From the IMG/VR virus record IMGVR_UViG_3300049928_000025, positions 1-63,150 of that record: 63,150 nt of DNA. One strand, 5' to 3'. The first letter of the stretch is position 1, and the number at the start of each line of letters is the position of its first letter. The translations under genes were made by a program, and so were the position numbers. Shown here piece by piece: positions 22,500 through 42,807 of the stretch. The notes beneath the pieces are model-generated. The model searched no databases. It was not told the origin of the DNA and saw only the letters and a list, made by a program, of their open reading frames with translations. Source of the stretch: a virus (Duplodnaviria; Caudoviricetes).

Positions 22500-22750
22500 C
22501 ACTTCGTCCTCCGCCCGCCGAGCGCCTGGCACCGGTCCAGCGCCGCGCTGATCGCCCGCTCGATGATGATCTGGGTGCGAGCCGTGCGGACAGTGCCGGG
22601 GCGAAGCGCAGCGAGGTCGTCAATCTCCCGCGCCGCCGCGAGGGCGAGGGCATCCACTGGTGGATCCTGCGCATCGCCGAGCGGCATCGGGCCAGCGATC
22701 GGCGCTGGTATGACAGGCTTGTTCGGCGGGATGAGGCGGCGGGCGGGCAT
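22499..22750 (-). CDS. Hypothetical protein
   Basis: Coupled ORF. Confidence 0.5.
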   Translation of the reverse strand: MPARRLIPPNKPVIPAPIAGPMPLGDAQDPPVDALALAAAREIDDLAALRPGTVRTARTQIIIERAISAALDRCQALGGRRTK

Positions 22751-23667: not shown

Positions 23668-23731
23668 CAGGATCTCCGGATTGTCAGGGGTGGTGCGTGT
23701 TGGCCCGGGCCGGGTGGCGCGGCGGGCGATG

Positions 23732-26419: not shown

Positions 26420-26480
26420 AAGCAAAACTCACGATGAGAAAGAGCAAGTTGCAGCGCCTCGAGCGCTGCAGAACGCGACC

Positions 26481-27179: not shown

Positions 27180-29278
27180 CAGGTCACCGTCACCGTGATC
27201 GGGCCAGCGGTCGACGAGGCATCGCCGAACCCTGAGCGGTTGAAGGCGCGCACCCAGTAGCGATAGGTGCCGGTCGGGCGCGGGTCGGACCAGTCGAAAG
27301 CCTGGGAGGCCGAGCCGTTGAAGGTGCGGATTGCGGTCGCCTGGGCGAAGTCGGCCGAGGTGCCGCGGTAGAGGCGGGCAAAGCCAAAGTTCGGGCTGTT
27401 CGGCGCGGTGAACGCGCCGGTGGCTTGCCCGGCGCTGCCGTTGGCGACAAAGCCGTCCGGTGGGCCGGGGGGCGTGGTGTCGGCGGTCGCGGTGATGGGC
27501 GACGGGGTGGCTGGTGTGTAGTTGCTGACCTGCGACCGGCCGAAGTTGCTGACCGCCCCCTCCACCTCGTACTGAGCGCCGTCGGTCAGGACGCTCGAGA
27601 CGACCGACCAGGGGTCGCCGGTGTCTGCCGCCATGTCAATCCAGGTGGCATCCCCGACGATCCGGTAGCGACCGACCAGCGACCGGTCCGGCCTGTCCTC
27701 CGGCACGGCGCTCAGGCGTAGGAACGTCGCGTTGATGTCGCCTGAGACCGCTCGCCGCTCGATGGTCACCGTCAGGCCGGTCGGCGGGTCCGGCGGCGAG
27801 GCCGCCGCCGAGGCGCCCGGCAGGGTCGGCTCCAGCCCCTCGTCGGTCTGCGCGTTGAAGGCGTAGACCTCGGGCCCGGTGGATGTGAGCTCGAAGCTGC
27901 AACGGGCGCCGTCGCTGGAGATGACCGGACGTGACACCGTGTAGGCGCCGTTGAGGATCGGGTAGCGGGTCAGCTGTAGATTGATGACATCCTCGAACAC
28001 CGCCGGCAGACCACCGCGCCCGGTCACGAGGGAAACCCGCCACCGCGGGTTCTTCTTGCGGTAGTAGATCCACGCGAGCCGGCGCAGTTGGTTGTGAAGC
28101 TGCACCCACGAGCAAGGGAATTCGGCTTCCAGCGTATCGCCCGCCTCGGCTTGAGCATCGAGATCATCAAGGGGATCACCCTCAATCATCTCCCAGCCGT
28201 GCGGCGCGGACACGAAGCTCGTCTTCAATCGATTGAAGGTCGCGCGCTTCCCGCTCCCGGCTTCGATCGAAATGGATATGATGTCCGGATCAGTTAGAGT
28301 CACCTCGGGGACAACGTAACGGCCGCCCCGAATGCCAATTTTTCCGGCAGGCGTCAGGTAAAGGTCGGCGTCCGAGGCCTGCAACATGCCCTGGAGGTCA
28401 TCGGCCGGGTCTTTGGTCAGGTCGCAGACGCCGCCTAGGTAGTAGCGCGGGAACTGGCGCCCGTCCTTCGTCGTGATCGTCTCGCTGTCGACGTTGGCCT
28501 TGGCGATGAACGAGGCGTCGTCGATCAGCGCCTCGGGCACCTTGAAACCCCACTGTCGATCGATCAGCCTGTCGCGGATGCAGAGCGCAGCGATCGGCGA
28601 GTATTGCCAGGTCGTCGGATCGCTGGTCTGGGCTGGGTCACGGATGTCTCGCACAAGGCTGCCTTCGATCAAGGCTTTAGTACTCGGAAAGGTGCCGCTC
28701 GGATAGTATTTCTTAAAGTATTTTGCTGGCTCCAGCGGCATCGCCGCGCGCATGACGAGATAGGCACAGCCATCAAGACGGTGATGTCCGTCCCAGTATC
28801 CAAGCTCCGATAGGATCGGTGAAACAGCCTGGGGCGCAGTGCCGAGATGTCCTTCTAGGGTAACGAGGTTCTGCCACGGCGCGACGCCCGCGATGCCGCC
28901 GAGCGAGCCGCCTGGGAGTGCAGTCTTGATGTCGTTGCAATGGTACTCCACGAACCGGTTGATCGGCCCCTCGCAAAGGTAGACCCCTGTGTAGAAGCGC
29001 CCGCCGGCCGTATCCCGAGCCACGAAGCCGCCTGAGAGCATCGTGCTCCCATAGACTTTGCGGCGGGCGAACAGCGCCTGCTTGAACGATAGCTGCTGAC
29101 TGGCAAGCCGCTGCTTCTGGTCCGGCGCCGTGAGAGTCTGGATCGCAAGGCTGGTGCCCAGGATCACCGCCGAGCCGATCGCGGCGTTGACCGTCAGCGT
29201 GCCGACAATCGCGGTTGTGCCAACGGCCGCCTCAACAGTAAGTGCCGACAAGATGGCCGCGCCGATCGTCTCAGGCAC
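27179..29278 (-). CDS. Tail tip/hub protein with FN3-like domains
   Basis: R.VYG...SG, LCEGPI, TWQYS..ALC, PPDPPTGL. Confidence 0.8.
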   Translation of the reverse strand: MPETIGAAILSALTVEAAVGTTAIVGTLTVNAAIGSAVILGTSLAIQTLTAPDQKQRLASQQLSFKQALFARRKVYGSTMLSGGFVARDTAGGRFYTGVYLCEGPINRFVEYHCNDIKTALPGGSLGGIAGVAPWQNLVTLEGHLGTAPQAVSPILSELGYWDGHHRLDGCAYLVMRAAMPLEPAKYFKKYYPSGTFPSTKALIEGSLVRDIRDPAQTSDPTTWQYSPIAALCIRDRLIDRQWGFKVPEALIDDASFIAKANVDSETITTKDGRQFPRYYLGGVCDLTKDPADDLQGMLQASDADLYLTPAGKIGIRGGRYVVPEVTLTDPDIISISIEAGSGKRATFNRLKTSFVSAPHGWEMIEGDPLDDLDAQAEAGDTLEAEFPCSWVQLHNQLRRLAWIYYRKKNPRWRVSLVTGRGGLPAVFEDVINLQLTRYPILNGAYTVSRPVISSDGARCSFELTSTGPEVYAFNAQTDEGLEPTLPGASAAASPPDPPTGLTVTIERRAVSGDINATFLRLSAVPEDRPDRSLVGRYRIVGDATWIDMAADTGDPWSVVSSVLTDGAQYEVEGAVSNFGRSQVSNYTPATPSPITATADTTPPGPPDGFVANGSAGQATGAFTAPNSPNFGFARLYRGTSADFAQATAIRTFNGSASQAFDWSDPRPTGTYRYWVRAFNRSGFGDASSTAGPITVTVT

Positions 29279-29666: not shown

Positions 29667-30238
29667 GTCGGGTCCCGCGAGACGAGGGCTGCGATCTCGG
29701 CCGCGCCGGTGTCGCCCGGGTGCAGGCGCTTCTGCGAGCCATCGTTCAGGTAGCCGAAGGGCGGCCGGCGGCGGTTGCTGAGCAGGGTGACGAGGGTCAC
29801 GGTGATGGTCGCCTTGGCCCCTTCGTCGAGCAGCACCATGCGGTCCATGACGCCGGAGTGGATCGCGAAAGGGCCGTCGAGGCGCGTCCAGTCCTCGGCG
29901 TACATCTGCTCGAAAATCCGGCAGGGGCGGCCTTTCACCTCCGACGCGGAGGCGAGTGCCCGGCCGACCAGATCGGGGTCGATCCCGGACAGGGTGAGCG
30001 AGGGGCCGTCGCCGCCCGGCACAAGCGACCGGTCGATGTCCGAGATCTGCCCGAGCGTGCCGATGCCGTCCCAGGTCACCAGCGGCCCGTTCGGGTTATC
30101 CGGATCCTGGGTCGCGATCGGACCGTGGCCCTGGTGAAGGCGCTTCGTCACGGAGGCGAAATCGAGTTGCACGAGGCGGGCAGCGCGGACCGTCTCTCCG
30201 CGCTGGAGCGCGGCGAGGGTGGCGGGCATCCGGGGCAT
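29651..30238 (-). CDS. Minor tail protein
   Basis: W.GIG.LG.I..LTLSG..G.MD..Q...PGD.G. Confidence 0.75.
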   Translation of the reverse strand: MPRMPATLAALQRGETVRAARLVQLDFASVTKRLHQGHGPIATQDPDNPNGPLVTWDGIGTLGQISDIDRSLVPGGDGPSLTLSGIDPDLVGRALASASEVKGRPCRIFEQMYAEDWTRLDGPFAIHSGVMDRMVLLDEGAKATITVTLVTLLSNRRRPPFGYLNDGSQKRLHPGDTGAAEIAALVSRDPTWPAS

Positions 30239-30241
30239 GGA

Positions 30242-33200
30242 TCAGTTGTTCTCCCGCCAGGTGGCGAGCTGCTGGCCGATGGTGCGGCGGTTCTCGGCGT
30301 TGCTCGCGGCGAGCATGGCCTGCAGCTCCGCCGTCGTGGCGCCGGGCTGCGGGGCGTTCAGGACCGTGTCGCCGATGCTGACGTTGATCGGACCCCGTGC
30401 GGCACCGGCGGGCCGCGCCATCGCCGGCACCGGCATCGCTCCCACCATTGGTGTGACGGCGCCGCCGCCCGCGAAGCGCCGGATCCGCCCGGAGTTGATC
30501 GCGTCCAGCAACTCGGGGTGCTGCTGCGCTGCCCGAGCGTTGACCACGAACTCACCGGTCGAGAGCATCGCCGGGATGCTGTCCGACGTCGATGTGCCGG
30601 CTCCGACGATCCGGCCGCCGGTCGCCGCCTTGACTGGGCTGCCCCCGAAGATGCCGGAGAGAAAATTGCCGGCCTTGGCGAGGAAGTCGCCCCCGCTGTT
30701 GCTCGTGCCGCCGCCGAACAGTCCGTTCAGGACGCTGTCGATGGCGCGGTCGCCGAGCTTCGACAGCAGGCCGGTCAACTGGTTCTGGAAGGCTTGGGCG
30801 AGCGTCGCGCCGCGTTGCAGGTCGTTGTTGATGCCCTTCAGGAAGGAGCCGGTGTCGGCCTTCTGGGTGGTGAGGTCGCGCAGGTCTTGCAGCTGCCCGT
30901 AGGCCTTGTTGAACTCGTCCGTGCCTTCGGCGCCGAAGCGGCGGGCGGTGAGGTAGTCTTGCTGCTCACCCGACGTGCGACCAAGGGCGCCGTACTGGTC
31001 GCGCAGGTCGAGGCTGAATTGCGACTGCTGCCGCCCTTTCACCGCCGCCGCCTCGGCATCGACCAGCTTCAGGAACGCGGCACGCTGCGCTTCAAGCTCT
31101 GGCGTCAACTTCTTGTTGCTGCCGGTCAGGAGTTCAGTTGCATTCGCAAACTCCCTGCTGATATCGCCCTGCTGTTTCCGGTCCTCTGCCAGGAGCCGCT
31201 CGGCGGCCTGAAGCCGTTCTGTTTCGGTGACGGACTTGCCGATTTCGGCAGTCTGAAGCTGGGTCTGGCGTATGCGCTCCTGCGCGGCCTGCCCGGCCGG
31301 GCCGGACCCGGTCGCCCTGAACGTCCCGTAGTTCAAGATGTCCTGCACGGTCGCGTTGCCGCGCTTGAAGACCTCCGGGTTGGACGCGGCCGCGCTAGGC
31401 AGCACACCTGCTGCGTTTGCTGATGGGTCGGCGCGCAGGATGCTCACCGCGCCCTGGGCGCCGAGAAAGTGCGCGAGGTGGAGGTTCCGCAGCGATGCTT
31501 CGAACCCCGCATCCTGGAGTTTCACAGCGTTCTGGCGACCAAGTTCGCCGATCGCCTCCCGGTTCAGTTCCGGATCCGTGCGCAGCGCCAGGATGCGCTT
31601 ACGGCTCTCGGCGGTCTCGGCCGCGCCGAGTGTGCCGTAGAGTTGAGGGCGAATTTTCTGGATGACGTCGAGCCATGTGCTCTCGATGAACTGGCCAAGG
31701 CCGGTCGCGGTGGAGCGCGGGTTGCGGGCGGTTGGGTCGCCTCCCGACTCCGGCTTGATGATAGAGTCGATGTAGCCCGCCGGCAGCGTGGTCGAGTTAA
31801 CGGCCTGCTTGCGAGTCTCCTCGCTAAACCCAGCGACCGCCTTGGCCCTGTTCTCCTCGTTCGTCTTAAGAGCCTGGGTGAGATTGGCCGCATCGGTCGT
31901 CTTGGTGATGTTGATGCGCAGTTCGTCGAACTGGCGGTTCACTTCAGCTAGGCCGCGAGCGTAGGGCGACAAGCCTGCTACGGCCTTCTGGAAATCGGCC
32001 GCGCGGATCGCCGCCGCGGCGGCGGCGCCCCCAGCCACGTATTCCTGCCGGAGGAGAGTTAGGCGCTCCTTGAGGGCATCCACCGACGCTTGAGCCTGCT
32101 CGGCGTTGTCCAGCATCCCGAGGGCGCGGTTGCTCTTCGTCGTGTCGTCCAGCGCCTTGATGCGCTTCGCAAGGTCGTCGATCGCCTCGCCCTCGGCGTT
32201 GTAGGCGCGGGCGGTGTCGCCGGCGATGATCGACCGCTCGCGTGCGATGGCATTCTCGGTGTCGTTGAAGCCCTGCGCGCCCTGACGACGGCGCTGTTCG
32301 TTCAAGTCCTCCGCCTGCGCCGTCGCGTCGCCGAGGGCTTTCGCGAGCGCCTTCGTGTCGTCCACCGCGCCCGGCGCGATCGGGTTCACCTCCTGGCGGA
32401 TTTGCGCCTCGGAGAGGCCCCGGTCGCGCAGCTCGGCGACATAGCTCTGATCGCTCGGATTGACGTTGCCGGACTGCTGCGCAGCGGTAGCCGCCGCCGC
32501 GCGCCGCCGCTCGGTTTCCTGCACCCGATCGTCGATCGTGCCGCCAGTGGTTGCCCGGACCACTGCCTTGCCTGCCGCGTCGGCTGCGGCCTCAACCGAA
32601 TTCCAGGCGCGGGCCCACAAGGAGGTCTTCGAGGCGGCGCGATCAAGCTCTGGCTGGGCCAGCTGAGCGAGCGTGCGGATAGCGCCCTGCCTATCACCTT
32701 GAGCGACCAATGTCCGAATGTACTGGCGCGTCCGATCATCAAGAATGCCAAGCCGGGAGTTCAGTTCATCGGCGCCCTTCGCAGGATCAGAAAAAATCTT
32801 AGCGAGGTCCGTGCCTGCCTCTGCCATATCCTTGCCGAACAGCTTCGCATATCCCGGAACTAGGTTCAGCACGTCCGGGATGTTCGAGGCGTCTACCTTG
32901 CCTGTTGCAGCGATCGCGGTGGCGGCCTCGCGGGCGGCACTTGCTGTGATGCGCCCGGACGAGGCCGCCGCTGCGGAAATCTCGTTGATCTGCCTGACGG
33001 TCGCGCCAGAGGCCTTACCCACGCCCATCAGGCCAGCCTCAATCTTCTCCTGCGCATTGTCCCAGCGCACGCCGAGAAGCACAGCGGCCGTTCCGATGCC
33101 GGCGACGCCGCCGACGACAAGCCGCGCGGGCGTGAGCAGGGCGAGGAAGCGGTCTTTCAGATCGCCAAGGGCCCCGCTGACACCTCCGCGAGCCCCCGCG

Positions 33201-33508
33201 AGAGCCTCGTAAATTTGGCCCGACTGCTGGGCGATGACCTGGAGCACCGATGCCCCGCTGCCCAGCGACGTACCAACGTCAATCGCCTGCGAGCGCAGAT
33301 TGCCGATCTGGTCCGGTCGGAGCGCGCGGCGGTTGGCTTCGTCAGCGGCTGAGACAGCGCGCTCAATTGCCTTTGCGGCTCGCTCGGCGGAGCGGGCGCC
33401 ATCGCGGCCGAAGTCAGCTACCTTCTGGCCCGCGCGATCAAGGCCCCTCTCTAGACCGGAGAGGTCGGCTTCGACGCGTTGGACGAGAGGGGGGAGATCA
33501 TTTGCCAT
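30242..33508 (-). CDS. Tape measure protein with lytic transglycosylase-like domain
   Basis: 1088 aa, Ala-rich; ESGGDPTARNPRSTATGLGQF..STW; TSDSIPAMLS.GEFVV. Confidence 0.92.
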   Translation of the reverse strand: MANDLPPLVQRVEADLSGLERGLDRAGQKVADFGRDGARSAERAAKAIERAVSAADEANRRALRPDQIGNLRSQAIDVGTSLGSGASVLQVIAQQSGQIYEALAGARGGVSGALGDLKDRFLALLTPARLVVGGVAGIGTAAVLLGVRWDNAQEKIEAGLMGVGKASGATVRQINEISAAAASSGRITASAAREAATAIAATGKVDASNIPDVLNLVPGYAKLFGKDMAEAGTDLAKIFSDPAKGADELNSRLGILDDRTRQYIRTLVAQGDRQGAIRTLAQLAQPELDRAASKTSLWARAWNSVEAAADAAGKAVVRATTGGTIDDRVQETERRRAAAATAAQQSGNVNPSDQSYVAELRDRGLSEAQIRQEVNPIAPGAVDDTKALAKALGDATAQAEDLNEQRRRQGAQGFNDTENAIARERSIIAGDTARAYNAEGEAIDDLAKRIKALDDTTKSNRALGMLDNAEQAQASVDALKERLTLLRQEYVAGGAAAAAAIRAADFQKAVAGLSPYARGLAEVNRQFDELRINITKTTDAANLTQALKTNEENRAKAVAGFSEETRKQAVNSTTLPAGYIDSIIKPESGGDPTARNPRSTATGLGQFIESTWLDVIQKIRPQLYGTLGAAETAESRKRILALRTDPELNREAIGELGRQNAVKLQDAGFEASLRNLHLAHFLGAQGAVSILRADPSANAAGVLPSAAASNPEVFKRGNATVQDILNYGTFRATGSGPAGQAAQERIRQTQLQTAEIGKSVTETERLQAAERLLAEDRKQQGDISREFANATELLTGSNKKLTPELEAQRAAFLKLVDAEAAAVKGRQQSQFSLDLRDQYGALGRTSGEQQDYLTARRFGAEGTDEFNKAYGQLQDLRDLTTQKADTGSFLKGINNDLQRGATLAQAFQNQLTGLLSKLGDRAIDSVLNGLFGGGTSNSGGDFLAKAGNFLSGIFGGSPVKAATGGRIVGAGTSTSDSIPAMLSTGEFVVNARAAQQHPELLDAINSGRIRRFAGGGAVTPMVGAMPVPAMARPAGAARGPINVSIGDTVLNAPQPGATTAELQAMLAASNAENRRTIGQQLATWRENN

Positions 33509-33519
33509 GGAGCTTCGCT

Positions 33520-33921
33520 TTGTTCAAGCATAAGGTACAAGCATTCGCATGCTTAATTTCGGTGCCGCTTTTCTATTCGTCTCCAACCGTAGCGCTGGAA
33601 GGCAGATACAGGGGGACTAGCGAAGGAGGGCAGCGGTTCTTAGTATTGAAGAAAAATGCAGATGGTTACGCAGGCGAATTTGCGACTGGTGGACCCCGAT
33701 CATTTCCGTGCGCAGGGCAGGTAAGGGGCCAATCAGAAAGCAGAGGATCTACTTTATTATTTAAAATTTGGGACAAGGATAATCCAGATAGCTATTGTAT
33801 AATAACCGTCTCCCCCACAAAGGATGGCGTTGATGTCCATGAAGAGCAGGGTTGTCTTCACTATCACGGAGCAAGCTGTGATTTTTCTGGCAAATTAAGG
33901 AAGGCCAGCTCAGGCAGGTAA
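33520..33921 (+). CDS. AT-rich moron, probable exported Cys-containing protein (TTG start uncertain)
   Basis: Opposite strand, AT-rich, signal-like N-terminus, C..YHGASCDFSG. Confidence 0.6.
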   Translation: MFKHKVQAFACLISVPLFYSSPTVALEGRYRGTSEGGQRFLVLKKNADGYAGEFATGGPRSFPCAGQVRGQSESRGSTLLFKIWDKDNPDSYCIITVSPTKDGVDVHEEQGCLHYHGASCDFSGKLRKASSGR

Positions 33922-34020
33922 ATCGGCCCAAATTACTCTGACCGAGCGTGTGCTTTCGGCGCTACAGCCGAGGGCCGCGCGACGCACGAGTATCGCTGCC
34001 CACGGGGAGGATCAGCGATA

Positions 34021-34425
34021 ATGTACCGCCTACCATTGGTCGCCATTCTGCTGCTTGCAACAACGGCTTGCACTTCAGGTATCAGTTACGTCTTGGACAA
34101 CTACAAAGGCGTCGAAAAACAAGAAATTTTTGTCGAGGGTGACGACACTTACCGTGTGTTCGATAAGCCCGCAGCTGGGCGCATGATGGTTACGTCCAGC
34201 TTAGGGGCCGCGGCTGGTCAGGGCGCCCTCAAAGGGCTAACCCTCGGCGCCGTGGAAAGCGCTCCGCCGAAGCCGCGATTTCAGAAAGCGGCCGAAACGT
34301 TTCTTGTCTCGACTGGCCGTTCTGAATGCCGGATCACCGATGGCTACCTGCTCGTGAACCCGCAGTGGGAGTTCACATACGACTGCTCGAAGCCGGTACC
34401 GAAGCTGGTGGCGCGTCGCCGATAG
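34021..34425 (+). CDS. Lipoprotein moron
   Basis: Signal with LLLATTAC lipobox-like end; GGGAGG RBS. Confidence 0.8.
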   Translation: MYRLPLVAILLLATTACTSGISYVLDNYKGVEKQEIFVEGDDTYRVFDKPAAGRMMVTSSLGAAAGQGALKGLTLGAVESAPPKPRFQKAAETFLVSTGRSECRITDGYLLVNPQWEFTYDCSKPVPKLVARRR

Positions 34426-34437
34426 GCGCGGAAATCA

Positions 34438-34465
34438 CCCAGCAGGGCGCCTCAGCCCTGCTGGG
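34438..34465. terminator. Strong hairpin between convergent units
   Basis: CCCAGCAGGGC-GCCTCA-GCCCTGCTGGG perfect 11-bp stem. Confidence 0.7.
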
Positions 34466-34472
34466 GCGGTTT

Positions 34473-34623
34473 GTAACCATCCCCGCAGGTGCGGGGAACG
34501 CTTCGGCGAACTCGGGCTCACCAAGGCTCGGCTCGGTTCATCCCCGCGAGAGCGGGGGACATCGTAGGTATTCCTCGGCGGCGGCCTGCCGCTCCGGTTC
34601 ATCCCCGCCACCGCGCGGAACGC
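34473..34623 (-). CRISPR. Type I-E-like mini-array: three 29-bp repeats, two 32-bp spacers, no cas genes
   Basis: Repeats start at 34473, 34534 and 34595 (61-bp period); - strand GCGTTCCGCGCGGTGGCGGGGATGAACCG, ATGTCCCCCGCTCTCGCGGGGATGAACCG, GCGTTCCCCGCACCTGCGGGGATGGTTAC. Confidence 0.9.
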
Positions 34624-34640
34624 TTCTTCCAGAGTCCATC

Positions 34641-34814
34641 CTAGGGGATGGGATTTCCAGAGGGCAAGGGATCTGCGGGCTTGGCCCATTCGATCCCGAG
34701 TTCATCGGCGAGACTCTTGGCGGCAGCCTCGCCCCAGATCTCTTTGGCCTCCTCGACCAGGGCCAGCTTCTCCTTGAAGGGGAGGCTGCTCGCCTCATTG
34801 TCGGCCTCAGCCAT
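34641..34814 (-). CDS. 57-aa acidic protein directly upstream of mini-array
   Basis: MAEADNEASSLPFKEKLALVEEAKEIWGEAAAKSLADELGIEWAKPADPLPSGNPIP; overlaps rha stop. Confidence 0.65.
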   Translation of the reverse strand: MAEADNEASSLPFKEKLALVEEAKEIWGEAAAKSLADELGIEWAKPADPLPSGNPIP

Positions 34815-35625
34815 GGATCGTTTCCGGCCTGGCGATGTCTGCCTTCAGTTTCGCCACGATGCCGGACGCCCACCGTAGCTGCCGCACCGGAGTGCCGTCG
34901 CCATGGCTCTTGCTGGTGTCCTGCATCACGCCGCCAGCTTCGCGTCCGAGATCGGTCACCTCGTAGTAGAGCCGATCCTTGGCGTCGCGCAGGGCGACCT
35001 GATAGCCGAATTGGACAAGGTAGCGGTTCACCTCCTGGGCGCTGTAGTCGCCGAGGCGCTTGCCGATGTCCGTGCAGTTCAGCAGCGGCTCGTTCTGCGG
35101 CGCGGTCACGTGGGTGATGCCCATGGCGCTGAGCGGATCGACGCCGCACATCGCCTTGGTCGCGCGGTTCGCAGCCAGAACCGCTTGGTTGCCCTCCAGC
35201 TTCAGCATCTTGGCGATGCCGAGATGGTGCTTGAAGGTCAGGCGCGCCTCACGGGGATCGGGACCGATGCGGGCAGGCGCCGGCGCGGCCGTCTGCTCCT
35301 CCAGCTCGAGCCAGCGATCCATGACGGCAGCCCGGAGGGGGATCGAGTAGCCGGTCACCAAGATCATGCACTCGCGCTTCGGGAGGTTGTGGCAGGGCTC
35401 CATCTTGCCGTTCCCAGCCCGGTAGGACGACGCAAAACTGCTCAGTGGCAGGCCAAGCTCCTCCAGCATCACGCGAACGTCGCGCATCACGTCGCTGTGA
35501 CGCTTCTTAGTCCGTTTCGCGATCTCGGTGGTGCACATCGTCAGCGGCATCGCGCTCGCGAGCGTCGCGGTCGGCGTGCTGCCCGTGGTATGGGGTTGTC
35601 CGTTCATCTGGTGCGCTCCTGGCAT
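34807..35625 (-). CDS. rha: Rha family regulator / antirepressor
   Basis: TM.T.EIA..T.KRH..VMRD.R..LPKREC.ILVTGYSI.LR..V.DRW.ELE. Confidence 0.9.
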   Translation of the reverse strand: MPGAHQMNGQPHTTGSTPTATLASAMPLTMCTTEIAKRTKKRHSDVMRDVRVMLEELGLPLSSFASSYRAGNGKMEPCHNLPKRECMILVTGYSIPLRAAVMDRWLELEEQTAAPAPARIGPDPREARLTFKHHLGIAKMLKLEGNQAVLAANRATKAMCGVDPLSAMGITHVTAPQNEPLLNCTDIGKRLGDYSAQEVNRYLVQFGYQVALRDAKDRLYYEVTDLGREAGGVMQDTSKSHGDGTPVRQLRWASGIVAKLKADIARPETIHG

Positions 35626-35714
35626 CCGGTGAGAAGTGCCCTCGGCGTCGGAACCGAGGGGGCGACGTGGCGGCGGGCCCGTGCCCTAGGAAGCTGTGCC
35701 CGCCGCCGGCCTGC

Positions 35715-36113
35715 TCACGCAGGAACCTGAGCCGCCGCGCCGATTAAGTCGCGCAGGAGGCTGGCAAGGAGAACGTCGGCCTGATCCGTCGAGGGCTCGG
35801 ATCGGGCGGTGTCGGCCGCTAGAAGGCGGGCTTTCGCCGTGAGGCCATCTCGGCTGAAGGCCGGCATCTCGCTCACGGCATCGAACAGCGCGTTCAACTC
35901 CTCGCAGTGGGCGTCGAGCGCGGCGTTGCTCCAATTCTCAGCGAGCGCCCGGCTGTTGATCTCGGCCTTGAGACCGATCGCCCGCTCAGCATCGCGGATA
36001 AGCGCCGCATCGGGCGAGGGGAGGGCTGCAGCGGGGCCAGCGAGCGGCAACGCGGCGAGCGCCGCGACCCCTACAAACATGCCCCTTCGTGTGCTATCTT
36101 GGTTCCTAGCCAT
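35715..36113 (-). CDS. Hypothetical protein with twin-arginine-like leader
   Basis: TRRGMFVGVAALAALPLAGPAAA; PA.S.DGL.AKAR. Confidence 0.7.
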   Translation of the reverse strand: MARNQDSTRRGMFVGVAALAALPLAGPAAALPSPDAALIRDAERAIGLKAEINSRALAENWSNAALDAHCEELNALFDAVSEMPAFSRDGLTAKARLLAADTARSEPSTDQADVLLASLLRDLIGAAAQVPA

Positions 36114-36141
36114 CTTCTGTGCCTTCCAGTGCGGGGTGGTC

Positions 36142-36342
36142 TCAGGCCTCGGACGGCGTTGCACCGCTGTCCGAGGCCGTTTTGTTTTCGGCCTCCAAGA
36201 GTCGCTGAAGCATCCAAACAATTTCGCCGTTGGCGCTGCGCATGTTTTTGCGGGCGCGTTCTTTGATCTGTTCGCGCAGCCCATCGGGCATGCGGACGAG
36301 AAAGCGATCAACGTTGTCGCTGGGGTACTTAGGCCGTGCCAT
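36142..36342 (-). CDS. Arc family DNA-binding protein
   Basis: DRFLVRMPDGLREQIK.RA..N.RS.N.EI. Confidence 0.9.
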   Translation of the reverse strand: MARPKYPSDNVDRFLVRMPDGLREQIKERARKNMRSANGEIVWMLQRLLEAENKTASDSGATPSEA

Positions 36343-36347
36343 GGCGC

Positions 36348-36422
36348 CTCCATATCGCGTCGTTATGGAGACTACATATCGACTTGATAGCATGTCAAGC
36401 TCCATATCGATGCGATATGGGG
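36348..36422. promoter_or_regulatory. Divergent operator region for the Arc-like pair
   Basis: CTCCATA-N9-TATGGAG (36348-70), CCATATCG-ATG-CGATATGG (36402-20), CTTGA..TCAAG (36383-99). Confidence 0.75.
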
Positions 36423-36429
36423 AGAGACG

Positions 36430-36834
36430 ATGCGCAAGCCCCGATCCGAATACCCCAGCGAGCAGGCCGACAAGTTCCTGCTGAGGTTTCCCAACGGCCT
36501 CCGCGACCGCATCAAGACGGCCGCCGATGCAAACGGCCGTTCAATGAACGCTGAAATAATCAACGTATTGGAGCAGCAATATCCACCAGAGCTAAGTGCC
36601 GATGAGTTGATTGCCGATCTTGAGTTTTTTGGAGAAATGTACGCCGCAAGAAAGAGTACAATCAGCGGCGCATATCTTAGAGACGTCATCTTGAGGCTGA
36701 AGGAAAAGCTTCGAAGCGAAGGCGTTCCCGACGCCGCCCTCGACCCCACCGCCCCCTCAACCCCCACCCCGCCCCCTTCCGAGAGTCCACGCCCTCAGGT
36801 CCGCCAAGGGGTCAGACGCAAGATGAAACTTTGA
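36430..36834 (+). CDS. Arc/Mnt family repressor
   Basis: DKFLLRFPNGLRDRIK.AA..NGRSMNAEI. Confidence 0.9.
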   Translation: MRKPRSEYPSEQADKFLLRFPNGLRDRIKTAADANGRSMNAEIINVLEQQYPPELSADELIADLEFFGEMYAARKSTISGAYLRDVILRLKEKLRSEGVPDAALDPTAPSTPTPPPSESPRPQVRQGVRRKMKL

Positions 36835-36892
36835 TCTCGCGCTTGCGTGATATCGTGCAGACCGCAAACGCCGATTCCATAAGGCCCCGTCC

Positions 36893-37180
36893 ATGAGCGC
36901 ATCCGCCGTCCTCAAGCTCCAGAAGGCCGGGTTCTCCACCGAACAGGTCGAGGCACTGGCCGACTTCATGGATACCCAGGCCGCCAGCAAGGCGGATCTG
37001 GACGCCGCCGTCCACAAGCTCGAACTCGGTCTTGCCGGTGTGCGGGCGGAGGTTGCCGATGCTCGCGCCGAGTCGCGCCTTCTTGAGCAGCGGATGACTG
37101 TGAAGCTCGGCGCCATGCTGGTGGCGCTTGCCGGGTTTCTTGTCGCCGTGCTGCGCTATCTACCGCCGGCCGGGCACTGA
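36893..37180 (+). CDS. DUF1640/CCDC90-like coiled-coil membrane protein
   Basis: L..AGFS.EQ.EAL..ASKADL..LEQRMTVKLG plus C-terminal TM. Confidence 0.75.
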   Translation: MSASAVLKLQKAGFSTEQVEALADFMDTQAASKADLDAAVHKLELGLAGVRAEVADARAESRLLEQRMTVKLGAMLVALAGFLVAVLRYLPPAGH

Positions 37181-37192
37181 GGAGGGCATCGA

Positions 37193-37288
37193 ATGACCGA
37201 GATCCAGATCCTGGCCTTCATCGTGACGCCGCTGTTCGCGGTCGCTGTCGGATGGGGTGTAGCCTACTGGGCGCGGCACGCCGGATGA
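37193..37288 (+). CDS. 31-aa membrane peptide
   Basis: GAGGAGG RBS; MTEIQILAFIVTPLFAVAVGWGVAYWARHAG. Confidence 0.6.
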   Translation: MTEIQILAFIVTPLFAVAVGWGVAYWARHAG

Positions 37289-37434
37289 CCGGCGCCACCT
37301 TCCTCTATCTCCTGCTCCCGCCCGCCGCCGCTCTCCTCCTGACCTGGGCGGCAGCTCGGCAGGTGAAGCGGGACACCGCACGGATCGACGCCATGCTGGC
37401 CGAGCGAGCCAAGCGGGCGTCCACCGAGGCCTGA
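37285..37434 (+). CDS. 49-aa membrane peptide
   Basis: ATGA overlap; MTGATFLYLLLPPAAALLLTW. Confidence 0.55.
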   Translation: MTGATFLYLLLPPAAALLLTWAAARQVKRDTARIDAMLAERAKRASTEA

Positions 37435-37440
37435 CCCGCC

Positions 37441-37662
37441 TCATATCCCCATCCACTCCGCCAACGCATCCGCCTCGCCGTCTGTCATCGGCGCCTTGTC
37501 CGGGTCCTGGGCCCTGTTCCAGGCCTGAACCAGTTCGTTGAACTCCTCAACGGACAGACCGTCGAGGCTCTGCAGCCCGATGATGAGGGCGCTCGCGCGG
37601 ATCGCGGCGAAGTCGATGCGGCCGTCGTCGGCCGCTACGAGGTCGCCGCTTTCCGGTTTCCC
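37441..37662 (-). CDS. Tail assembly chaperone frameshift extension (gpT-like)
   Basis: Open -1 frame after slippery GGGAAAC at 37662-37656. Confidence 0.7.
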   Translation of the reverse strand, partial: GKPESGDLVAADDGRIDFAAIRASALIIGLQSLDGLSVEEFNELVQAWNRAQDPDKAPMTDGEADALAEWMGI

Positions 37663-38009
37663 TCGTCTGCCTCCTCCTTGGGCGCGGGCGCGGGCGGCGG
37701 GTTGCCGAGCACGGCGGCCCCGAGGACCATCAGCGCCGTCGCGATGACCTCGACGAGCGGGGTGTCGTCGCCGGCGTATTCTCCGACGAGCTTGAGCGCT
37801 TGTTGCGCCGGCATCCCACCGCCGATGAGCCCGAGGCGGATGGTCTCCTGAGCGTCCTCGACCCGGGCCCGCCCATCGGCGAGCCGGGCCAGGATCTCCG
37901 GCGGCCCGGCGTTGCACTTCTCCTGCAGCTGCTTCAGCCGCGGGATGTCGAGGTGGAAGTGATGCTCGGCGTCGCCGAAGGGCAGGTCGATGCTGGTGCG
38001 CCGGGCCAT
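37635..38009 (-). CDS. Tail assembly chaperone (GTA gp10-like)
   Basis: F.L.I..L..LQEKC.AGP..ETIRLGLIGGGM. Confidence 0.8.
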   Translation of the reverse strand: MARRTSIDLPFGDAEHHFHLDIPRLKQLQEKCNAGPPEILARLADGRARVEDAQETIRLGLIGGGMPAQQALKLVGEYAGDDTPLVEVIATALMVLGAAVLGNPPPAPAPKEEADEGNRKAATS

Positions 38010-38011
38010 CG

Positions 38012-38461
38012 TCAGGCGCTCGCCGGGGTCCAGACGACGGGTCCCGTCGACTGCATCTCGATCGACTTGGTGACCCGGTTGCCCTTGGTCGCGCCGTCCT
38101 CCATCGACGAGAGGTGGAACTTGCCGAGCCAGTAGCCGCCGCCGGCCGCGAGGTTGCCGGACTTCTGGATACGGACCTGCACCGGCTGGTCGCTCTCATA
38201 GGCAGCACGCCACCGGTCCTCGCTCTCCCGGGCCATCACGCCCTGGCCGGAGACACGGACGCTCTTCGCGACCACGTCCCGCTCGGTCCACGAGGCGTTG
38301 TCCTCGTTGTCGCAGTCGGGCACGTTGGTGTCGGAGAGGTCCTTCGTGAACTGCACCGAGCGCTCGGTCAGGCCGCAGGGAGCAACGAAGGTGCCGGCCG
38401 TGGTCGTGCTCTCGAGCAAGACCTGATAGCCCGCGAAGCTGCGGGTGGTCGCCTGGGTCAT
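38012..38461 (-). CDS. Major tail tube protein
   Basis: F.APCGLT..PDC..W..SG.GV. Confidence 0.85.
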   Translation of the reverse strand: MTQATTRSFAGYQVLLESTTTAGTFVAPCGLTERSVQFTKDLSDTNVPDCDNEDNASWTERDVVAKSVRVSGQGVMARESEDRWRAAYESDQPVQVRIQKSGNLAAGGGYWLGKFHLSSMEDGATKGNRVTKSIEMQSTGPVVWTPASA

Positions 38462-38472
38462 GGCCTGTCCTT

Positions 38473-38667
38473 TCAGGTGGAGGAGGTGTCGGGGGTGTCG
38501 TCCTCGGCCCTGGCCTGCGGATCGATCAGTTCGGCGGCCTTGTCGGCGAGCGCGGCCTCGACTTGAGCCTGAGGCAGGCGCTTCTCTTCGCCCTTCTTGA
38601 ACATCATCACGACGTTGGACTTGGGCCAGAAATCCCAGTCGCGCAGAAACCTGACCCGAGCGGCCAT
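38473..38667 (-). CDS. Small virion-associated protein
   Basis: VRFLRDWDF; between tail terminator and tube genes. Confidence 0.65.
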   Translation of the reverse strand: MAARVRFLRDWDFWPKSNVVMMFKKGEEKRLPQAQVEAALADKAAELIDPQARAEDDTPDTSST

Positions 38668-38691
38668 GGGCGCATCCTTATGGTTGGCTGA

Positions 38692-39114
38692 TCAGCCCGC
38701 GACCTCGACCACGAGCGCGCGGAAACGGACGATGCCGTGCCAGTCGGCCGGCTGCTCGGCGTCGGGACCGGTCGTCGAACTGCGGTGATCGAGGCCGATC
38801 AGGACGCCCTCGGAGAGGGGTAGGGCCGCCTCGTCGAGCGCAGCGACGATGGCGGCGTTGAGGCGCTGCACGCCGCGGCTGCTGCGATCGGCACGCACAA
38901 ACGAATGGACGACCAACTCCGCCTCCATCCCGACCCAGCACGAGGCCTCCCAGGGGAGCACGGTGGGCGGGTCGAGGCGCAGGAACGGCCACGTCGGCTT
39001 GGCCTCGACGTAGTCCCGGACGCGCCCCTTCACGATCGCCGCCACGCCCGGGTTCTGCGCCAGGGCCAGCATCGCCGCCGAGGTCAGCGCGTCGGAGAAG
39101 TCGCGCGACGCCAT
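38692..39114 (-). CDS. Tail terminator (DUF3168-like)
   Basis: V.GRV.D...WPF...D..HG...FRA. Confidence 0.8.
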   Translation of the reverse strand: MASRDFSDALTSAAMLALAQNPGVAAIVKGRVRDYVEAKPTWPFLRLDPPTVLPWEASCWVGMEAELVVHSFVRADRSSRGVQRLNAAIVAALDEAALPLSEGVLIGLDHRSSTTGPDAEQPADWHGIVRFRALVVEVAG

Positions 39115-39527
39115 CAGCGCAGGCCCCGGGCCTTGGCGAGGCCTTCCAGGAAGTCAATTGCGGCCGCGTCCTGCTCGAGGCGGACAGCCGGCGCCATGAA
39201 GGGGCGGGCCGCCATCTTCGAAGTGCCGTACTCCAGCGCGGCGGCGTAGCCGGCGGTGACCCGCACCTCGGCGGTGAGCTCGTCAACCTGGACGACGCGG
39301 ATGGACCGGTCGAGGAAGTGGGTGTCAGCGTTCGGCGGCTCACCCGGCGCGGAGGGGACATGCCCGGCGCCGGAGACCGCGCCGTCGCGGATCAGGTGCA
39401 CGGCCCGGTTCGCGATCCGCTGGGCGCCCTTGAACACGCTCTGGCTGACCTGCCGCCGCGCATCCCGCGAAAGGTCGTCCAGTTTCGCTGTCACGCGCGA
39501 GACGTTGGTGACGCTGCCGCGGGCCAT
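39114..39527 (-). CDS. HK97 gp10-like neck protein
   Basis: SAPGEPP..DT..L..SI..YA..LEYGTSKMAARPFM.PA. Confidence 0.9.
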   Translation of the reverse strand: MARGSVTNVSRVTAKLDDLSRDARRQVSQSVFKGAQRIANRAVHLIRDGAVSGAGHVPSAPGEPPNADTHFLDRSIRVVQVDELTAEVRVTAGYAAALEYGTSKMAARPFMAPAVRLEQDAAAIDFLEGLAKARGLR

Positions 39528-39530
39528 GGT

Positions 39531-40529
39531 TCACCTGCCGAACAGGATTTCGAGGTCGCATTCGCAGTTGATCCGCTCGACGGCGGGCGCCCGCGGGTCG
39601 GCCGGGTAGCGCAGCACCGCGCCGCTGGCGCTCACGAACGAGGCCCGGGCCGGGACCGTCTGCCCGTTGAGCAGGCGGTGGGTGTGGCGCACGTTGGGCC
39701 CGCCCGAGTCGCGCCAGCGCTTTCGGACCTCTCCGATGTCGACCCGACCCGAGTCGCCGGCCTGCTCGAGCGCCTGGATGCGCGCCTCGTAGAGCGCAGG
39801 CGTCGTCTCGGTCTTGGCGATGGTCTCGCCCCGGTGCCGGAGCATCCGGCTCTCGTAGGCGGCGACCATGCGGGTGATCTGGTCGGAGTTGGGCGGCTTA
39901 CCCTCGGCGATCGCCCGCTTCAGGGCGCCGTCGTAGCGGGGATCGCGCAGCTGCCGCTCCAGGGCCGCCGGATCTGCGCGGGCGAGCTCGGCGGCATAGT
40001 TCCTGACGATGGCCTCCTGATAGGCCGTCAGTCCGATGATGCCGCCCGTCCGGCGCCCGGTTGCGCGATCGACGCGGCCGACGAGGTCGAGGGCAATTTC
40101 GCGCGGGTTGCGGCCCGCCTCCATGCCAGCGACGAGGCGCTGCCGGATCGCGAGGCGCTGGTCGTCGATGATCTCCCGGACCAGAGTCGCCGAATGGTCG
40201 CGCAGCCAGGCCTCGGCCAGCTGGCTGCGGATGTCGAAGACGGTGCTGATGCGACCGCCGTCAGGGCCGCGCACAGCCGGCAGCGCGTCGATGGTCGCCC
40301 TCCCGCCGCCCTCGAAGGCCTGCTCCAGCGCCGCGTCGAGCGGGCGGAACATCGCCGGCGCCAGCGGCACCGCGGCCACCGCCGCATCCGGGCCGATCGC
40401 CACGAGGCGCGCCGCGACGTGGTTCGGCTGCACCAGCGCTTTGATGTCAGCCACGACTTCCGCGAAGGCCTGCGCCACCTTGGGCGCCCAGGCGTCGAGC
40501 AGGGTCCCGAGCCCCCTGAAGATGGGCAT
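39531..40529 (-). CDS. MuF-like head morphogenesis protein
   Basis: IAKTET..KRW....VR.TH..LNGQ..LRYPAD..ERINCEC. Confidence 0.85.
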   Translation of the reverse strand: MPIFRGLGTLLDAWAPKVAQAFAEVVADIKALVQPNHVAARLVAIGPDAAVAAVPLAPAMFRPLDAALEQAFEGGGRATIDALPAVRGPDGGRISTVFDIRSQLAEAWLRDHSATLVREIIDDQRLAIRQRLVAGMEAGRNPREIALDLVGRVDRATGRRTGGIIGLTAYQEAIVRNYAAELARADPAALERQLRDPRYDGALKRAIAEGKPPNSDQITRMVAAYESRMLRHRGETIAKTETTPALYEARIQALEQAGDSGRVDIGEVRKRWRDSGGPNVRHTHRLLNGQTVPARASFVSASGAVLRYPADPRAPAVERINCECDLEILFGR

Positions 40530-41844: not shown

Positions 41845-42807
41845 TCAGATGCCGTCGACGTAGGACACGGCGCCCGGCAGCCGGATCTCGGTCCCGCCGG
41901 TCCGCATGATGCCGGGGATCTCCCAGGCCATGCCGCTCTTCTGGAACGGCGGCAGGAAGCGGTGCGGCATCGGGAGGTGGAAGCGGAGCACCTCCGGGCT
42001 CCGGCGATAGGCGATCATGCGCTTGGTGCCGCCGGCGCCGGCTGTCTCGAGCGAGCGCAGACCGATGATTGTCAGCGGCTGCCGGGTCCGGGCGGTGTAG
42101 ACGTTGTTGTTGCGCAGGTACTCCAGCACGGTCGTGTCGCTGGTGGACGAGCGCGCGGTCGAGGACAGCGACAGCAGGCGGGAGGTCGGCAGCGCCAGCG
42201 TGTCGGCCATCTCCACCTCGACCGTCGAGGTGACGATGCCGGTCAGCGCCGCGTTGATGTCGCCGAGCTGCTGGTCCGGGGCCTTGGTGGGCCAGGTCGT
42301 GCTGGATCCCGTGCCGGTGGCCGCCGCCGTGACGGTCGGCACGTTCGGGTCGTTGACGAGGCCAGTCCAGTTCTTCTGGTTGGTGACGCCGTCCGGACGC
42401 CCGGTCATGGCGATGTTCCAGAGGAACTGTTCCGCCACGCGGCGGGCCGCCATCGCCTTCACGTCCGAGAGGTTGATGCCCTCCATCTGCGCGGTCATCA
42501 GTTCCTCCAGGCTCCACTCGTAGCCGATGCCGGCGAGCGCGAAGCCCTTGGTGAACTGGTTGCGCGACACGTCCGCGTAGGGCATGTCGAACCCCTTGCC
42601 GGAGATGAACTGCGCCTGCCCGGCCATGTCGACGGACGAGAACAGCGTACCGCGCGCCCACTCGTTGCCCTCGGTCACGACCGGGATCAGCGAAGCGTAG
42701 TCGAACGACGGATACTTCTGCTCGTAGATCGTCGCTTCGATGTTGTAGAACTGCGGACGGACGAAGCCCAGAGCCTGCTGGGCGTCATAAAGATTGATGG
42801 CACCCAT
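41845..42807 (-). CDS. Major capsid protein (DUF2184/encapsulin-like)
   Basis: IYE..Y..IPV..G..W..EEL..GL.N.PN..TGG..IR.P.A..YVDGI. Confidence 0.9.
   Translation of the reverse strand: MGAINLYDAQQALGFVRPQFYNIEATIYEQKYPSFDYASLIPVVTEGNEWARGTLFSSVDMAGQAQFISGKGFDMPYADVSRNQFTKGFALAGIGYEWSLEELMTAQMEGINLSDVKAMAARRVAEQFLWNIAMTGRPDGVTNQKNWTGLVNDPNVPTVTAAATGTGSSTTWPTKAPDQQLGDINAALTGIVTSTVEVEMADTLALPTSRLLSLSSTARSSTSDTTVLEYLRNNNVYTARTRQPLTIIGLRSLETAGAGGTKRMIAYRRSPEVLRFHLPMPHRFLPPFQKSGMAWEIPGIMRTGGTEIRLPGAVSYVDGI

What the first reader, a model, noticed from the sequence alone, without database searches (positions are those of the whole stretch)
34473..34623. Phage-borne cas-less type I-E CRISPR mini-array
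Seen: three 29-bp repeats at exact 61-bp spacing. Spacers on - strand are GAGCGGCAGGCCGCCGCCGAGGAATACCTACG and AGCCGAGCCTTGGTGAGCCCGAGTTCGCCGAA. The two repeats that precede spacers keep the GGGGATGAACCG end that supplies the crRNA 5' handle, while the last repeat has lost it. A strong hairpin follows. There are no cas genes and no AT-rich leader, and I saw no self-match by eye. Known: 29+32 geometry and this repeat end are type I-E, and viral mini-arrays and repeat-mimic RNA anti-CRISPRs exist. Inference: it borrows host Cascade to target competitors or host genes, or acts as a decoy.
Basis: partly seen in the sequence, partly recalled or inferred. Interest (0 to 1): 0.85.

Follow-up and report, generated by a model that had tools for sequence, protein, structure and literature searches.

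The report
Cas-less CRISPR mini-array in Methylobacterium phage
A temperate phage of Methylobacterium-like soil bacteria carries a real two-spacer CRISPR mini-array without cas genes, a kind of element already known from other viruses, and what its two spacers target could not be found.

Summary
On the minus strand at 34473-34623 lie three 29-nt repeats and two 32-nt spacers with a 61-nt period. A strong hairpin follows. The array sits in a moron island inside the tail-gene module of a temperate siphophage.

The closest relative is a prophage of Methylobacterium terricola (capsid protein 93% identical), and it lacks the array at the same site. In that genus, 19 of 146 species genomes have type I-E Cas7e. 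Ten of 146 have arrays whose repeat, GTGTTCCCCGCAGGCGCGGGGATGAACCG, matches phage repeats R1 and R2 at 24/29.

Of the 14 phage-repeat differences, 13 fall in the loop and 5' flank. The stem and the 8-nt handle are spared.

No protospacer was found in IMG/VR, JGI metagenome contigs, phage and plasmid collections, or 146 genus genomes. No match to host cas8e upstream regions rose above shuffled controls.

Similar I-E mini-arrays occur in 41 IMG/VR stretches and in Saccharomonospora phage PIS 136.

Verdict: a new member of a known kind. It most likely supplies crRNAs to host Cascade (about 45%). The rivals are an RNA anti-CRISPR role and an inert captured remnant. Interest is modest.

The parts
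34595..34623 (-). Repeat R1 (first in the direction of transcription). It supplies the ATGAACCG 5' handle for spacer 1. One stem position is changed (C8 to G), so the predicted hairpin is bulged and shifted in register.
   Evidence: 24/29 identical to the host consensus. Fold.
34563..34594 (-). Spacer 1, 32 nt, GC-rich. No target found.
34534..34562 (-). Repeat R2. It has a perfect 6-bp stem, a TCTC loop and an intact ATGAACCG handle.
34502..34533 (-). Spacer 2, 32 nt. No target found. Its PAM-distal 19 nt match a spacer of an orphan host array in genome G018 at 17/19.
34473..34501 (-). Repeat R3. It has a perfect stem and an ACCT loop, and its last 5 nt differ from the handle (GGTTAC instead of AACCG). 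AACCG follows 6 nt later, so an alternative reading is a whole repeat with a 6-nt insertion.
34438..34465 (.). Hairpin with an 11-bp stem and a 6-nt loop between the array and the convergent lipoprotein gene. It is probably a terminator for both directions. It is 97% identical to the hairpin in the M. terricola prophage that lacks the array.
34641..34814 (-). 57-aa ORF directly upstream of the array. Its start overlaps the end of the Ant gene. It has no family or solved relative.
34807..35625 (-). Rha/Ant-type anti-repressor gene, the first gene of the small moron unit that ends with the array and the hairpin.
   Evidence: phrog_8235 3.8e-20, phrog_63. (PF09669 1.3e-11).
34021..34425 (+). Convergent 134-aa ORF whose N-terminus resembles a signal peptide with a cysteine. 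The lipoprotein reading is my own reading of the sequence, not a tool result.
   Evidence: No family hit.

Best explanation
It is a virus-borne, cas-less type I-E CRISPR mini-array. The proposed mechanism has five steps. (1) The minus strand is transcribed, either as the tail of the Ant/57-aa-ORF moron transcript that ends at the hairpin, or by late read-through of the tail operon. (2) Host Cas6e binds the repeat hairpins and cuts at their 3' base. (3) This gives two 61-nt crRNAs, each made of the 8-nt ATGAACCG handle, a 32-nt spacer and a 21-nt hairpin. Predicted 5' ends are at 34602 and 34541. (4) The crRNAs load into the host's Cascade. (5) Cascade and Cas3 then attack DNA that carries the matching protospacers, most likely competing phages or plasmids of the same hosts (heterotypic superinfection exclusion). 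Shown here: the array's anatomy, its place in a phage, the matching I-E systems in the candidate host genus, and the selective conservation of the functional repeat parts. Inferred: transcription, processing, loading and the nature of the targets.
For: The geometry is exactly 29+32 nt. The repeats match the consensus of Methylobacterium arrays that lie next to I-E cas genes. The handle ATGAACCG is identical in R1 and R2. Of 14 differences from the host consensus, 13 lie in the loop (9) or the 5' flank (4), only 1 lies in the stem and 0 in the handles. Under an even spread the binomial P is 8e-6. The only handle that is lost is the one no crRNA needs (R3). R2 and R3 fold into the canonical hairpin. 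The orientation agrees with the neighbouring minus-strand genes and the downstream terminator. The array sits in a moron island beside an anti-repressor and a convergent lipoprotein-like gene. The syntenic site of the related prophage has the same Ant gene and hairpin but no array, so the array is an accessory insertion. The array is identical in contigs of three other DNA runs. In one soil metatranscriptome the only identical piece within 1.8 kb is 34393-34595, which covers the array and hairpin; this is a weak hint of transcription only. Canonical 32-nt spacers fit real adaptation products better than mimics do. Spacer 2 shares a 19-nt word with a host-array spacer, and that word is otherwise absent from 146 genomes, which ties it to genuine CRISPR spacer content. 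Published precedent was read as passages in PMC6858448 and PMC11656645.
Against: No protospacer was found for either spacer. There were 0 exact matches in IMG/VR and in JGI metagenome contigs. There were 0 matches at up to 3 mismatches in 146 genus genomes. Matches in the phage and plasmid collections were at chance level only, with E of 0.06 or more. Nothing exceeded shuffled controls in related prophage loci. The repeats are only 24/29 identical to the nearest host consensus and differ from each other, whereas published viral mini-arrays are described as having host-identical repeats. R1's stem change shifts the predicted hairpin, so crRNA1 may be poorly processed. There is no leader and no sigma-70-like promoter. 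The actual host strain and its CRISPR status are unknown, and only 19 of 146 genus genomes have Cas7e.
Confidence: 0.45

Rival explanations
1. It is an RNA anti-CRISPR. The transcript mimics host repeats, ties up Cas6e and Cascade subunits with useless guides (Racr-like competition), or guides Cascade to repress the host's own cas promoter (Cracr-like). Either way it protects the phage from host I-E immunity.
For: I-E Racrs (RacrIE1, RacrIE2) were shown to work (passages of PMC10651486). [quoted passage not shown] The array keeps exactly the parts that Cas6e and Cascade bind. It lies in an accessory island. The lack of any target fits a non-targeting role. Late read-through would give high RNA levels during lytic growth; this last point is inference.
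Against: It is not a solitary repeat unit. The spacers are canonical 32 nt, whereas the tested CracrIE pseudo-spacers are 24 and 21 nt. Neither spacer matched the cas8e genes with 1.5 kb on either side in 7 host genomes with the same repeat type, nor the M. terricola cas region, better than shuffled spacers did. The best matches were 21-22/32 against shuffle maxima of 19-23, and the seed runs were no better than shuffles. No known Acr or Aca was recognised in the neighbouring ORFs.
Confidence: 0.25
2. It is an inert remnant. A piece of a host array was picked up by illegitimate or repeat-mediated recombination, is carried along in a non-essential intergenic spot, and is slowly decaying.
For: The repeats differ from each other and from every host consensus seen. 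R1 has a stem defect and R3 a broken end. There is no leader, no target was found, and the closest relatives lack the array: 0 of 2 distinct relatives covering the region, L003 (identical to L106) and L107. About 12 nt upstream of R1 resemble the leader-repeat junction of host arrays (phage CTCTGGAAGAA|GCG against host CTTCTGGGAAGA|GTG), which suggests capture from a host array. Spacer 2 resembles a spacer in a decayed orphan host array.
Against: Decay should hit the stem and handle as often as the loop, but 13 of 14 changes avoid them. One caveat applies: loop differences could have been imported from different host repeat variants. The 61-nt period is exact, with no indels between R1 and R3. 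The array is unchanged in contigs from several independent runs.
Confidence: 0.25

Closest known systems
Virus-borne mini-CRISPR arrays. These include SPV1/SPV2 of Sulfolobales (Medvedeva et al. 2019, PMC6858448) and the phage and prophage mini-arrays surveyed in the reference cited there and in PMC11656645.
   Same: One or two spacers. No cas genes. Located in an intergenic spot of a viral genome. Repeats of the host's CRISPR type. Bacteriophage examples are reported to lack leaders (passages read).
   Different: The SPV arrays have leaders and are of an archaeal type I repeat class. Published arrays are said to have host-identical repeats and mostly target related viruses. Here the repeats are 24/29 identical to the nearest host consensus and no target was found.
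I-E Cracr arrays of prophages (Liu et al., bioRxiv 10.1101/2024.10.29.618823)
   Same: A prophage-borne, cas-less array of two or three units with I-E repeat-like sequences. An imperfect third repeat is also described there.
   Different: Their pseudo-spacers are short (24 and 21 nt) and match the host casA promoter or CreR elements. Here the spacers are 32 nt and no such match was found in 7 host loci. That paper's Table S2 could not be seen, and the words Methylobacterium, Hyphomicrobiales and Rhizobiales do not occur in its main text.
RNA anti-CRISPRs (Racr; Camara-Wilpert et al. 2023, PMC10651486), including RacrIE1 and RacrIE2
   Same: Repeat mimicry by a phage, and conservation of the Cas6-binding hairpin.
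   Different: Racrs are solitary repeat units. Their pipeline set mini-arrays aside as a separate class. This element has three repeats and canonical spacers.
Unannotated I-E-like array in Saccharomonospora phage PIS 136 (JX006077.1) and I-E mini-arrays in IMG/VR contigs
   Same: Repeats ending GCGGGGATGAACC at a 61-nt period inside phage genomes. PIS 136 has 4 repeats. 41 IMG/VR stretches hold such repeat pairs, and 23 of them show only 2-3 repeats. Several have a last repeat that has lost the handle (L076, L090, L092, L093, L094, L101). One lineage (L079) has the array among phage replication genes.
   Different: In most of those arrays the repeats are identical to each other. None shares a spacer with this window, and none of their spacers matches this phage.

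Membership tests
Type I-E CRISPR array | 29-nt repeats and 32-nt spacers (61-nt period) | tested here: met
   three copies, spaced 61 and 61 nt.
Type I-E CRISPR array | Repeat sequence of the kind found next to I-E cas genes (CCCCGC-loop-GCGGGG stem, 3' end ATGAACCG) | tested here: met
   Host arrays with GTGTTCCCCGCAGGCGCGGGGATGAACCG occur in 10 of 146 genus genomes. Cas8e was found in 7 of these 10 and Cas7e in 8 of 10. Where located, the arrays adjoin cas8e. The phage repeats are 24/29, 24/29 and 20/29 identical to this consensus.
Type I-E CRISPR array | Each repeat forms the Cas6e hairpin | tested here: inconclusive
   R2 and R3 give the canonical 6-7 bp hairpin. R1 gives a bulged hairpin with a shifted register.
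Type I-E CRISPR array | Leader with promoter and integration signals upstream of the first repeat | tested here: not met
   Host leaders share ...TTGACATCGTGAAATG...CTTCCAGAAGGA. The phage has only a similarity of about 12 nt at the junction, and beyond that comes the end of a 57-aa ORF. No promoter-like site was found.
Type I-E CRISPR array | Transcription and Cas6e processing into 61-nt crRNAs | not testable with these tools
   The only indication is a contig from an RNA library covering 34393-34595. The strand and RNA ends are unknown.
Virus-borne mini-CRISPR array | One or two spacers, in a viral genome, without cas genes | tested here: met
   Two spacers. Phage structural, lysis and integrase genes are present. 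No cas homologue was found.
Virus-borne mini-CRISPR array | Repeats the same as those of the host's CRISPR system | tested here: inconclusive
   The nearest consensus in the candidate host genus is 24/29 identical. The handle and 3' stem are identical. The actual host strain is unknown.
Virus-borne mini-CRISPR array | Spacers target related viruses or other mobile elements | tested here: inconclusive
   No target was found in any collection searched. These collections hold few relatives of this phage.
Racr (RNA anti-CRISPR, solitary repeat unit) | A single repeat-like unit without canonical repeat-spacer periodicity | tested here: not met
   Three repeats with two 32-nt spacers.
Cracr array (viral crRNA-like regulator) | Pseudo-spacer with at least 9 PAM-proximal matches to the host cas promoter or CreR element | tested here: not met
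   The cas8e genes with 1.5 kb on either side in 7 host genomes, plus the M. terricola cas region, were scanned. Seed runs and total matches were no better than for shuffled spacers. The true host locus may differ.

The most novel reading that the evidence does not exclude
The array is not primarily a guide store. It is a Cas6e-cleavable 3' untranslated tail of the anti-repressor (Ant) transcript. In a host with active type I-E machinery, Cas6e would cut off the terminator hairpin and change the stability of the Ant/57-aa-ORF message. The phage's lysis-lysogeny or superinfection behaviour would then be tuned to the CRISPR status of its host. A related bold reading is that the three different loops and 5' flanks are kept different on purpose, either to suit several host Cas6e variants or to prevent recombinational loss.
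Probability: 0.05. Interest if true: 0.75.

Novelty: new member of a known kind. Interest (0 to 1): 0.35.

Why it matters
It adds a clear example of a cas-less I-E mini-array in a phage of Methylobacterium-type hosts. No paper in the searched library mentions such an array for that group (0 papers hold Methylobacterium, phage, CRISPR and mini-array together). Its repeats have diverged from each other while keeping only the stem and the handle. That makes it a small natural experiment on what a phage must preserve to use host Cas6e and Cascade. It is also a useful test case for telling apart the three published roles of viral repeat elements: inter-virus targeting, decoy and regulator. It does not open a new class of system.

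Tried and rejected
Searches and tests that gave nothing:
- Exact spacer scans of IMG/VR and JGI metagenome contigs gave 0 hits.
- Each spacer at up to 3 mismatches in 146 genus genomes gave 0 hits.
- blastn of the array and of each spacer against the phage and plasmid collections gave only repeat-driven hits to other arrays, or short chance hits with E of 0.06 or more.
- Relaxed matching to the window, to related prophage loci and to host cas8e regions was not above shuffled controls.
- About 300 host and viral spacers (596 counted on both strands) were compared with the window. None matched at up to 6 mismatches given a shared 10-mer.
- Relatives sought in IMG/VR with the 212-aa ORF and with Ant gave none. 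With the capsid protein, the hits were the M. terricola prophage again and two distant contigs, all without repeats.
- Megablast of 24 kb of the window against the phage collection gave no match.
- Rfam on 30000-40000 gave only a chance snoRNA-like hit.
- The 57-aa ORF had no Pfam, PHROG or PDB relative.

Hits judged to be chance:
- BLAST hits in G050 and G141 spanning part of R1 plus the start of spacer 1. They are gapped, GC-rich and not in repeat context, so I judged them chance.

Things that cannot be interpreted or were not available:
- Run X4 has no contig over 34361-34602. This is a gap in cover and says nothing.
- The fourth sequence folded used wrong coordinates and is not a repeat. 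Ignore it.
- Supplementary tables of the papers cited could not be read. The array might be listed in Table S2 of the Cracr preprint.

Full report
**What is there.** The window is an IMG/VR virus record of 63,150 bp, linear, with an estimated completeness of 82% and 67% GC.

On the minus strand lie three 29-nt repeats with start-to-start spacing of 61 and 61 nt:
- R1, 34623-34595, GCGTTCCGCGCGGTGGCGGGGATGAACCG
- R2, 34562-34534, ATGTCCCCCGCTCTCGCGGGGATGAACCG
- R3, 34501-34473, GCGTTCCCCGCACCTGCGGGGATGGTTAC

A pattern for the I-E repeat core matched twice on the minus strand, never on the plus strand, and never when read backwards. A hairpin with an 11-bp stem follows at 34438-34465.

**Context.** The minus strand carries a siphophage late module:
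- large terminase 52899-54368
- portal 49999-52899
- protease 43335-44579
- major head protein 41845-42807
- major tail protein 38012-38461
- a tail-tube-like gene 37635-38009
- tape measure 30242-33508
- tail fibres 27179-29278 and 24497-26425
- endolysin 22750-23898

An integrase at 10944-11993 makes the phage temperate.

Between the tail-tube-like gene and the tape-measure gene lies an island of about 4 kb with lower third-position GC. It holds several ORFs without family, a Rha/Ant anti-repressor (34807-35625), an overlapping 57-aa ORF (34641-34814), the array, the hairpin, and a convergent 134-aa ORF with a lipoprotein-like N-terminus. The array is therefore the last element of a small minus-strand unit that ends at the hairpin. 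No sigma-70-like promoter was found. No cas homologue exists in the window.

**Host and matching CRISPR systems.** The major head protein is 93% identical to that of a prophage in Methylobacterium terricola 17Sr1-39. That genome has I-E Cas7e and Cas6e genes and an 18-repeat 29/32 array of a sister repeat type.

Among 146 species-representative genomes of the genus:
- 19 have Cas7e.
- 10 have arrays with TTCCCCGC-NNNN-GCGGGGATGAACCG at up to 1 mismatch.
- Of those 10, Cas8e was found in 7 and Cas7e in 8.

The commonest host repeat is GTGTTCCCCGCAGGCGCGGGGATGAACCG. The phage repeats are 24/29, 24/29 and 20/29 identical to it. Candidate hosts with a compatible I-E system therefore exist, but they are a minority of the genus and the real host strain is not known.

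**Signs of constraint.** I left out the last 8 nt of R3, which no crRNA would need. The three repeats then differ from the host consensus at 14 positions: 9 in the 4-nt loop, 4 in the 5' flank, 1 in the stem and 0 in the two handles. With changes spread evenly over the sites, the chance of at most 1 falling in stem or handle is 8e-6.

One caveat applies. If the units came from different host repeat variants, part of this pattern was made in hosts, not in the phage.

R2 and R3 fold into the canonical hairpin. R1's single stem change gives a bulged hairpin with a shifted register, so the first crRNA may be made less well. All three hairpins and the terminator appear in the fold of the whole region (z = -4.8).

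**Origin.** Host leaders are well conserved (…TTGACATCGTGAAATG…CACTTCCAGAAGGA before the first repeat). The phage shares only about 12 nt at the junction (…CTCTGGAAGAA before R1), and beyond that comes coding sequence of the 57-aa ORF. This is a weak hint that the array was captured from the leader end of a host array.

The M. terricola prophage has the same Ant gene (87% identity) and the same hairpin (97%) but no repeats between them. A more distant IMG/VR relative also has none. The array is thus an accessory insertion of this phage line.

Contigs from other public runs reproduce the array and both of its junctions with 0 differences:
- X3: 34410-34560 and 34573-34841
- X5: 34536-34864
- X4: 34603-34899

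In a soil metatranscriptome (X6) the only identical piece within the 1.8 kb laid is 34393-34595, that is, the hairpin, R3, spacer 2, R2 and spacer 1. Contigs give neither strand nor RNA ends, and DNA can be present in such libraries. I count this only as a weak hint that the region is transcribed.

**Targets.** None was found.
- Exact scans of IMG/VR and JGI metagenome contigs gave 0 hits.
- Each spacer at up to 3 mismatches in 146 genus genomes gave 0 hits.
- blastn against 50,697 phage and 72,556 plasmid records gave only chance-level pieces.
- Relaxed matching to the window and to related prophage loci stayed within the range of shuffled spacers.

To test the regulator (Cracr) idea I scanned the cas8e genes with 1.5 kb on either side in 7 host genomes of the same repeat type, plus the M. 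terricola cas region. The best totals were 21-22/32 against shuffle maxima of 19-23, and the seed runs were no better than shuffles. None of the roughly 300 host and viral spacers I could extract matches this phage.

**One unexplained link.** A decayed orphan array in genome G018 has no Cas7e nearby and lies among transposases. It holds a spacer whose last 19 nt match the last 19-20 nt of phage spacer 2 at 17/19. The orientation relative to the repeat is the same and the register is offset by one.

A 19-letter motif covering both versions occurs once in all 146 genomes, in that spacer, and never when read backwards. For calibration, 1.1% of 1,500 random 32-mers from the window share a 13-nt word with any of 332 spacers.

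The first 13 nt of the two spacers are unrelated. This may mean a shared target or shared descent through array recombination. I cannot tell which. Either way it ties spacer 2 to genuine CRISPR spacer content.

**Comparison with what is known.** I read the following in papers.
- Virus-borne mini-arrays of 1-2 spacers that use host Cas proteins against related viruses are established. Bacteriophage examples are reported to lack leaders (passages of PMC6858448 and PMC11656645).
- Solitary-repeat RNA anti-CRISPRs, including two tested against an I-E system, are established (passages of PMC10651486).
[quoted passage not shown] Their short pseudo-spacers (24 and 21 nt in the tested case) match the casA promoter (sections 7 and 8 of 10.1101/2024.10.29.618823).

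My own scan found repeat pairs of this I-E family in 41 IMG/VR stretches. My repeat-chain detector recovered arrays in 38 of them, and 23 show only 2-3 repeats. Some of these lie at the ends of the held DNA and may be cut. Several have a last repeat without the handle. One lineage has the array among phage primase, helicase and annealing-protein genes and varies from 2 to 5 spacers. The cultured Saccharomonospora phage PIS 136 has an unannotated 4-repeat array of the same type.

The element here is therefore a new member of a known kind. Its particular traits are mutually diverged repeats with spared functional parts, a position as the tail of an anti-repressor moron inside the tail module, and a host group for which the searched library holds no such report.

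**Verdict.**
- Most likely (about 45%): a working mini-array that feeds two crRNAs, or at least the second one, into host Cascade against unsampled competitors.
- About 25%: it serves the phage as an RNA anti-CRISPR, as a decoy or a regulator.
- About 25%: it is an inert captured piece.

The sequence alone cannot separate these. The experiments listed under decisive next steps can.

Noticed in passing
window 49999-52899 (-): The 966-aa portal protein carries a C-terminal stretch (about residues 768-966) that matches ADP-ribosyltransferase families of phages (phrog_3895 2e-16; Alt-like phrog_802 1.6e-12). This suggests a portal-ART fusion.
   Followed up: no
window 33509-34020: There is a gap without convincing ORFs between the tape-measure start and the lipoprotein-like gene. 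It includes a patch of 38% GC at 33726-33816 that gave a chance-level snoRNA hit. The tail-chaperone ORFs of the related M. terricola prophage have no homologue in the window.
   Followed up: partly
L105:1361-1584 (JX006077.1, about 15680-15903): Saccharomonospora phage PIS 136, a cultured phage, holds four I-E-like repeats (…CCGCCCCGCRCACGCGGGGATGAACC) at a 61-nt period. They are unannotated and overlap the 'hypothetical protein' PIS_013.
   Followed up: partly
L066, L068, L070, L079, L082 (IMG/VR): One phage lineage carries the same I-E mini-array with 2, 4 or 5 spacers, one of them duplicated in L082, behind a shared AT-rich upstream sequence. In L079 the array lies among primase, Dda-like helicase, Sak4 and Cas4-domain exonuclease genes. 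This suggests spacer turnover in a viral array.
   Followed up: partly
L104:9735-10430 (G018:C1, about 1719635-1720330): A decayed orphan array of about 12 mutated repeats in a genome without Cas7e. One of its spacers shares 17/19 nt with the PAM-distal end of phage spacer 2, and the shared 19-mer is otherwise absent from 146 genus genomes.
   Followed up: partly
G001:C49:96386-96409 and 89454-89538 (L018): In the M. terricola I-E locus, a solitary repeat-like unit lies on the far side of the cas genes from a small two- to three-repeat array. The solitary unit might be a host crRNA-like regulator of the CreR type.
   Followed up: no
window 34467-34480 (-): After GCGGGGATG, R3 reads GTTACA and then AACCG. 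R3 could therefore be a complete repeat interrupted by a 6-nt insertion rather than a truncated one.
   Followed up: no
host loci L023-L031, L049: Leaders of Methylobacterium I-E arrays share a conserved block …GGTGCGYTCTTTGACATCGTGAAATG…CTTCCAGAAGGA immediately before the first repeat. In several genomes one array lies directly upstream of cas8e.
   Followed up: no
window 57248-58090 (-) and 61396-62661 (-): A Q-like transcription antiterminator (phrog_6386, 5.8e-20) and a DNA methyltransferase (phrog_67, 2.5e-73). The antiterminator could let late transcription read through the hairpin that follows the array.
   Followed up: no
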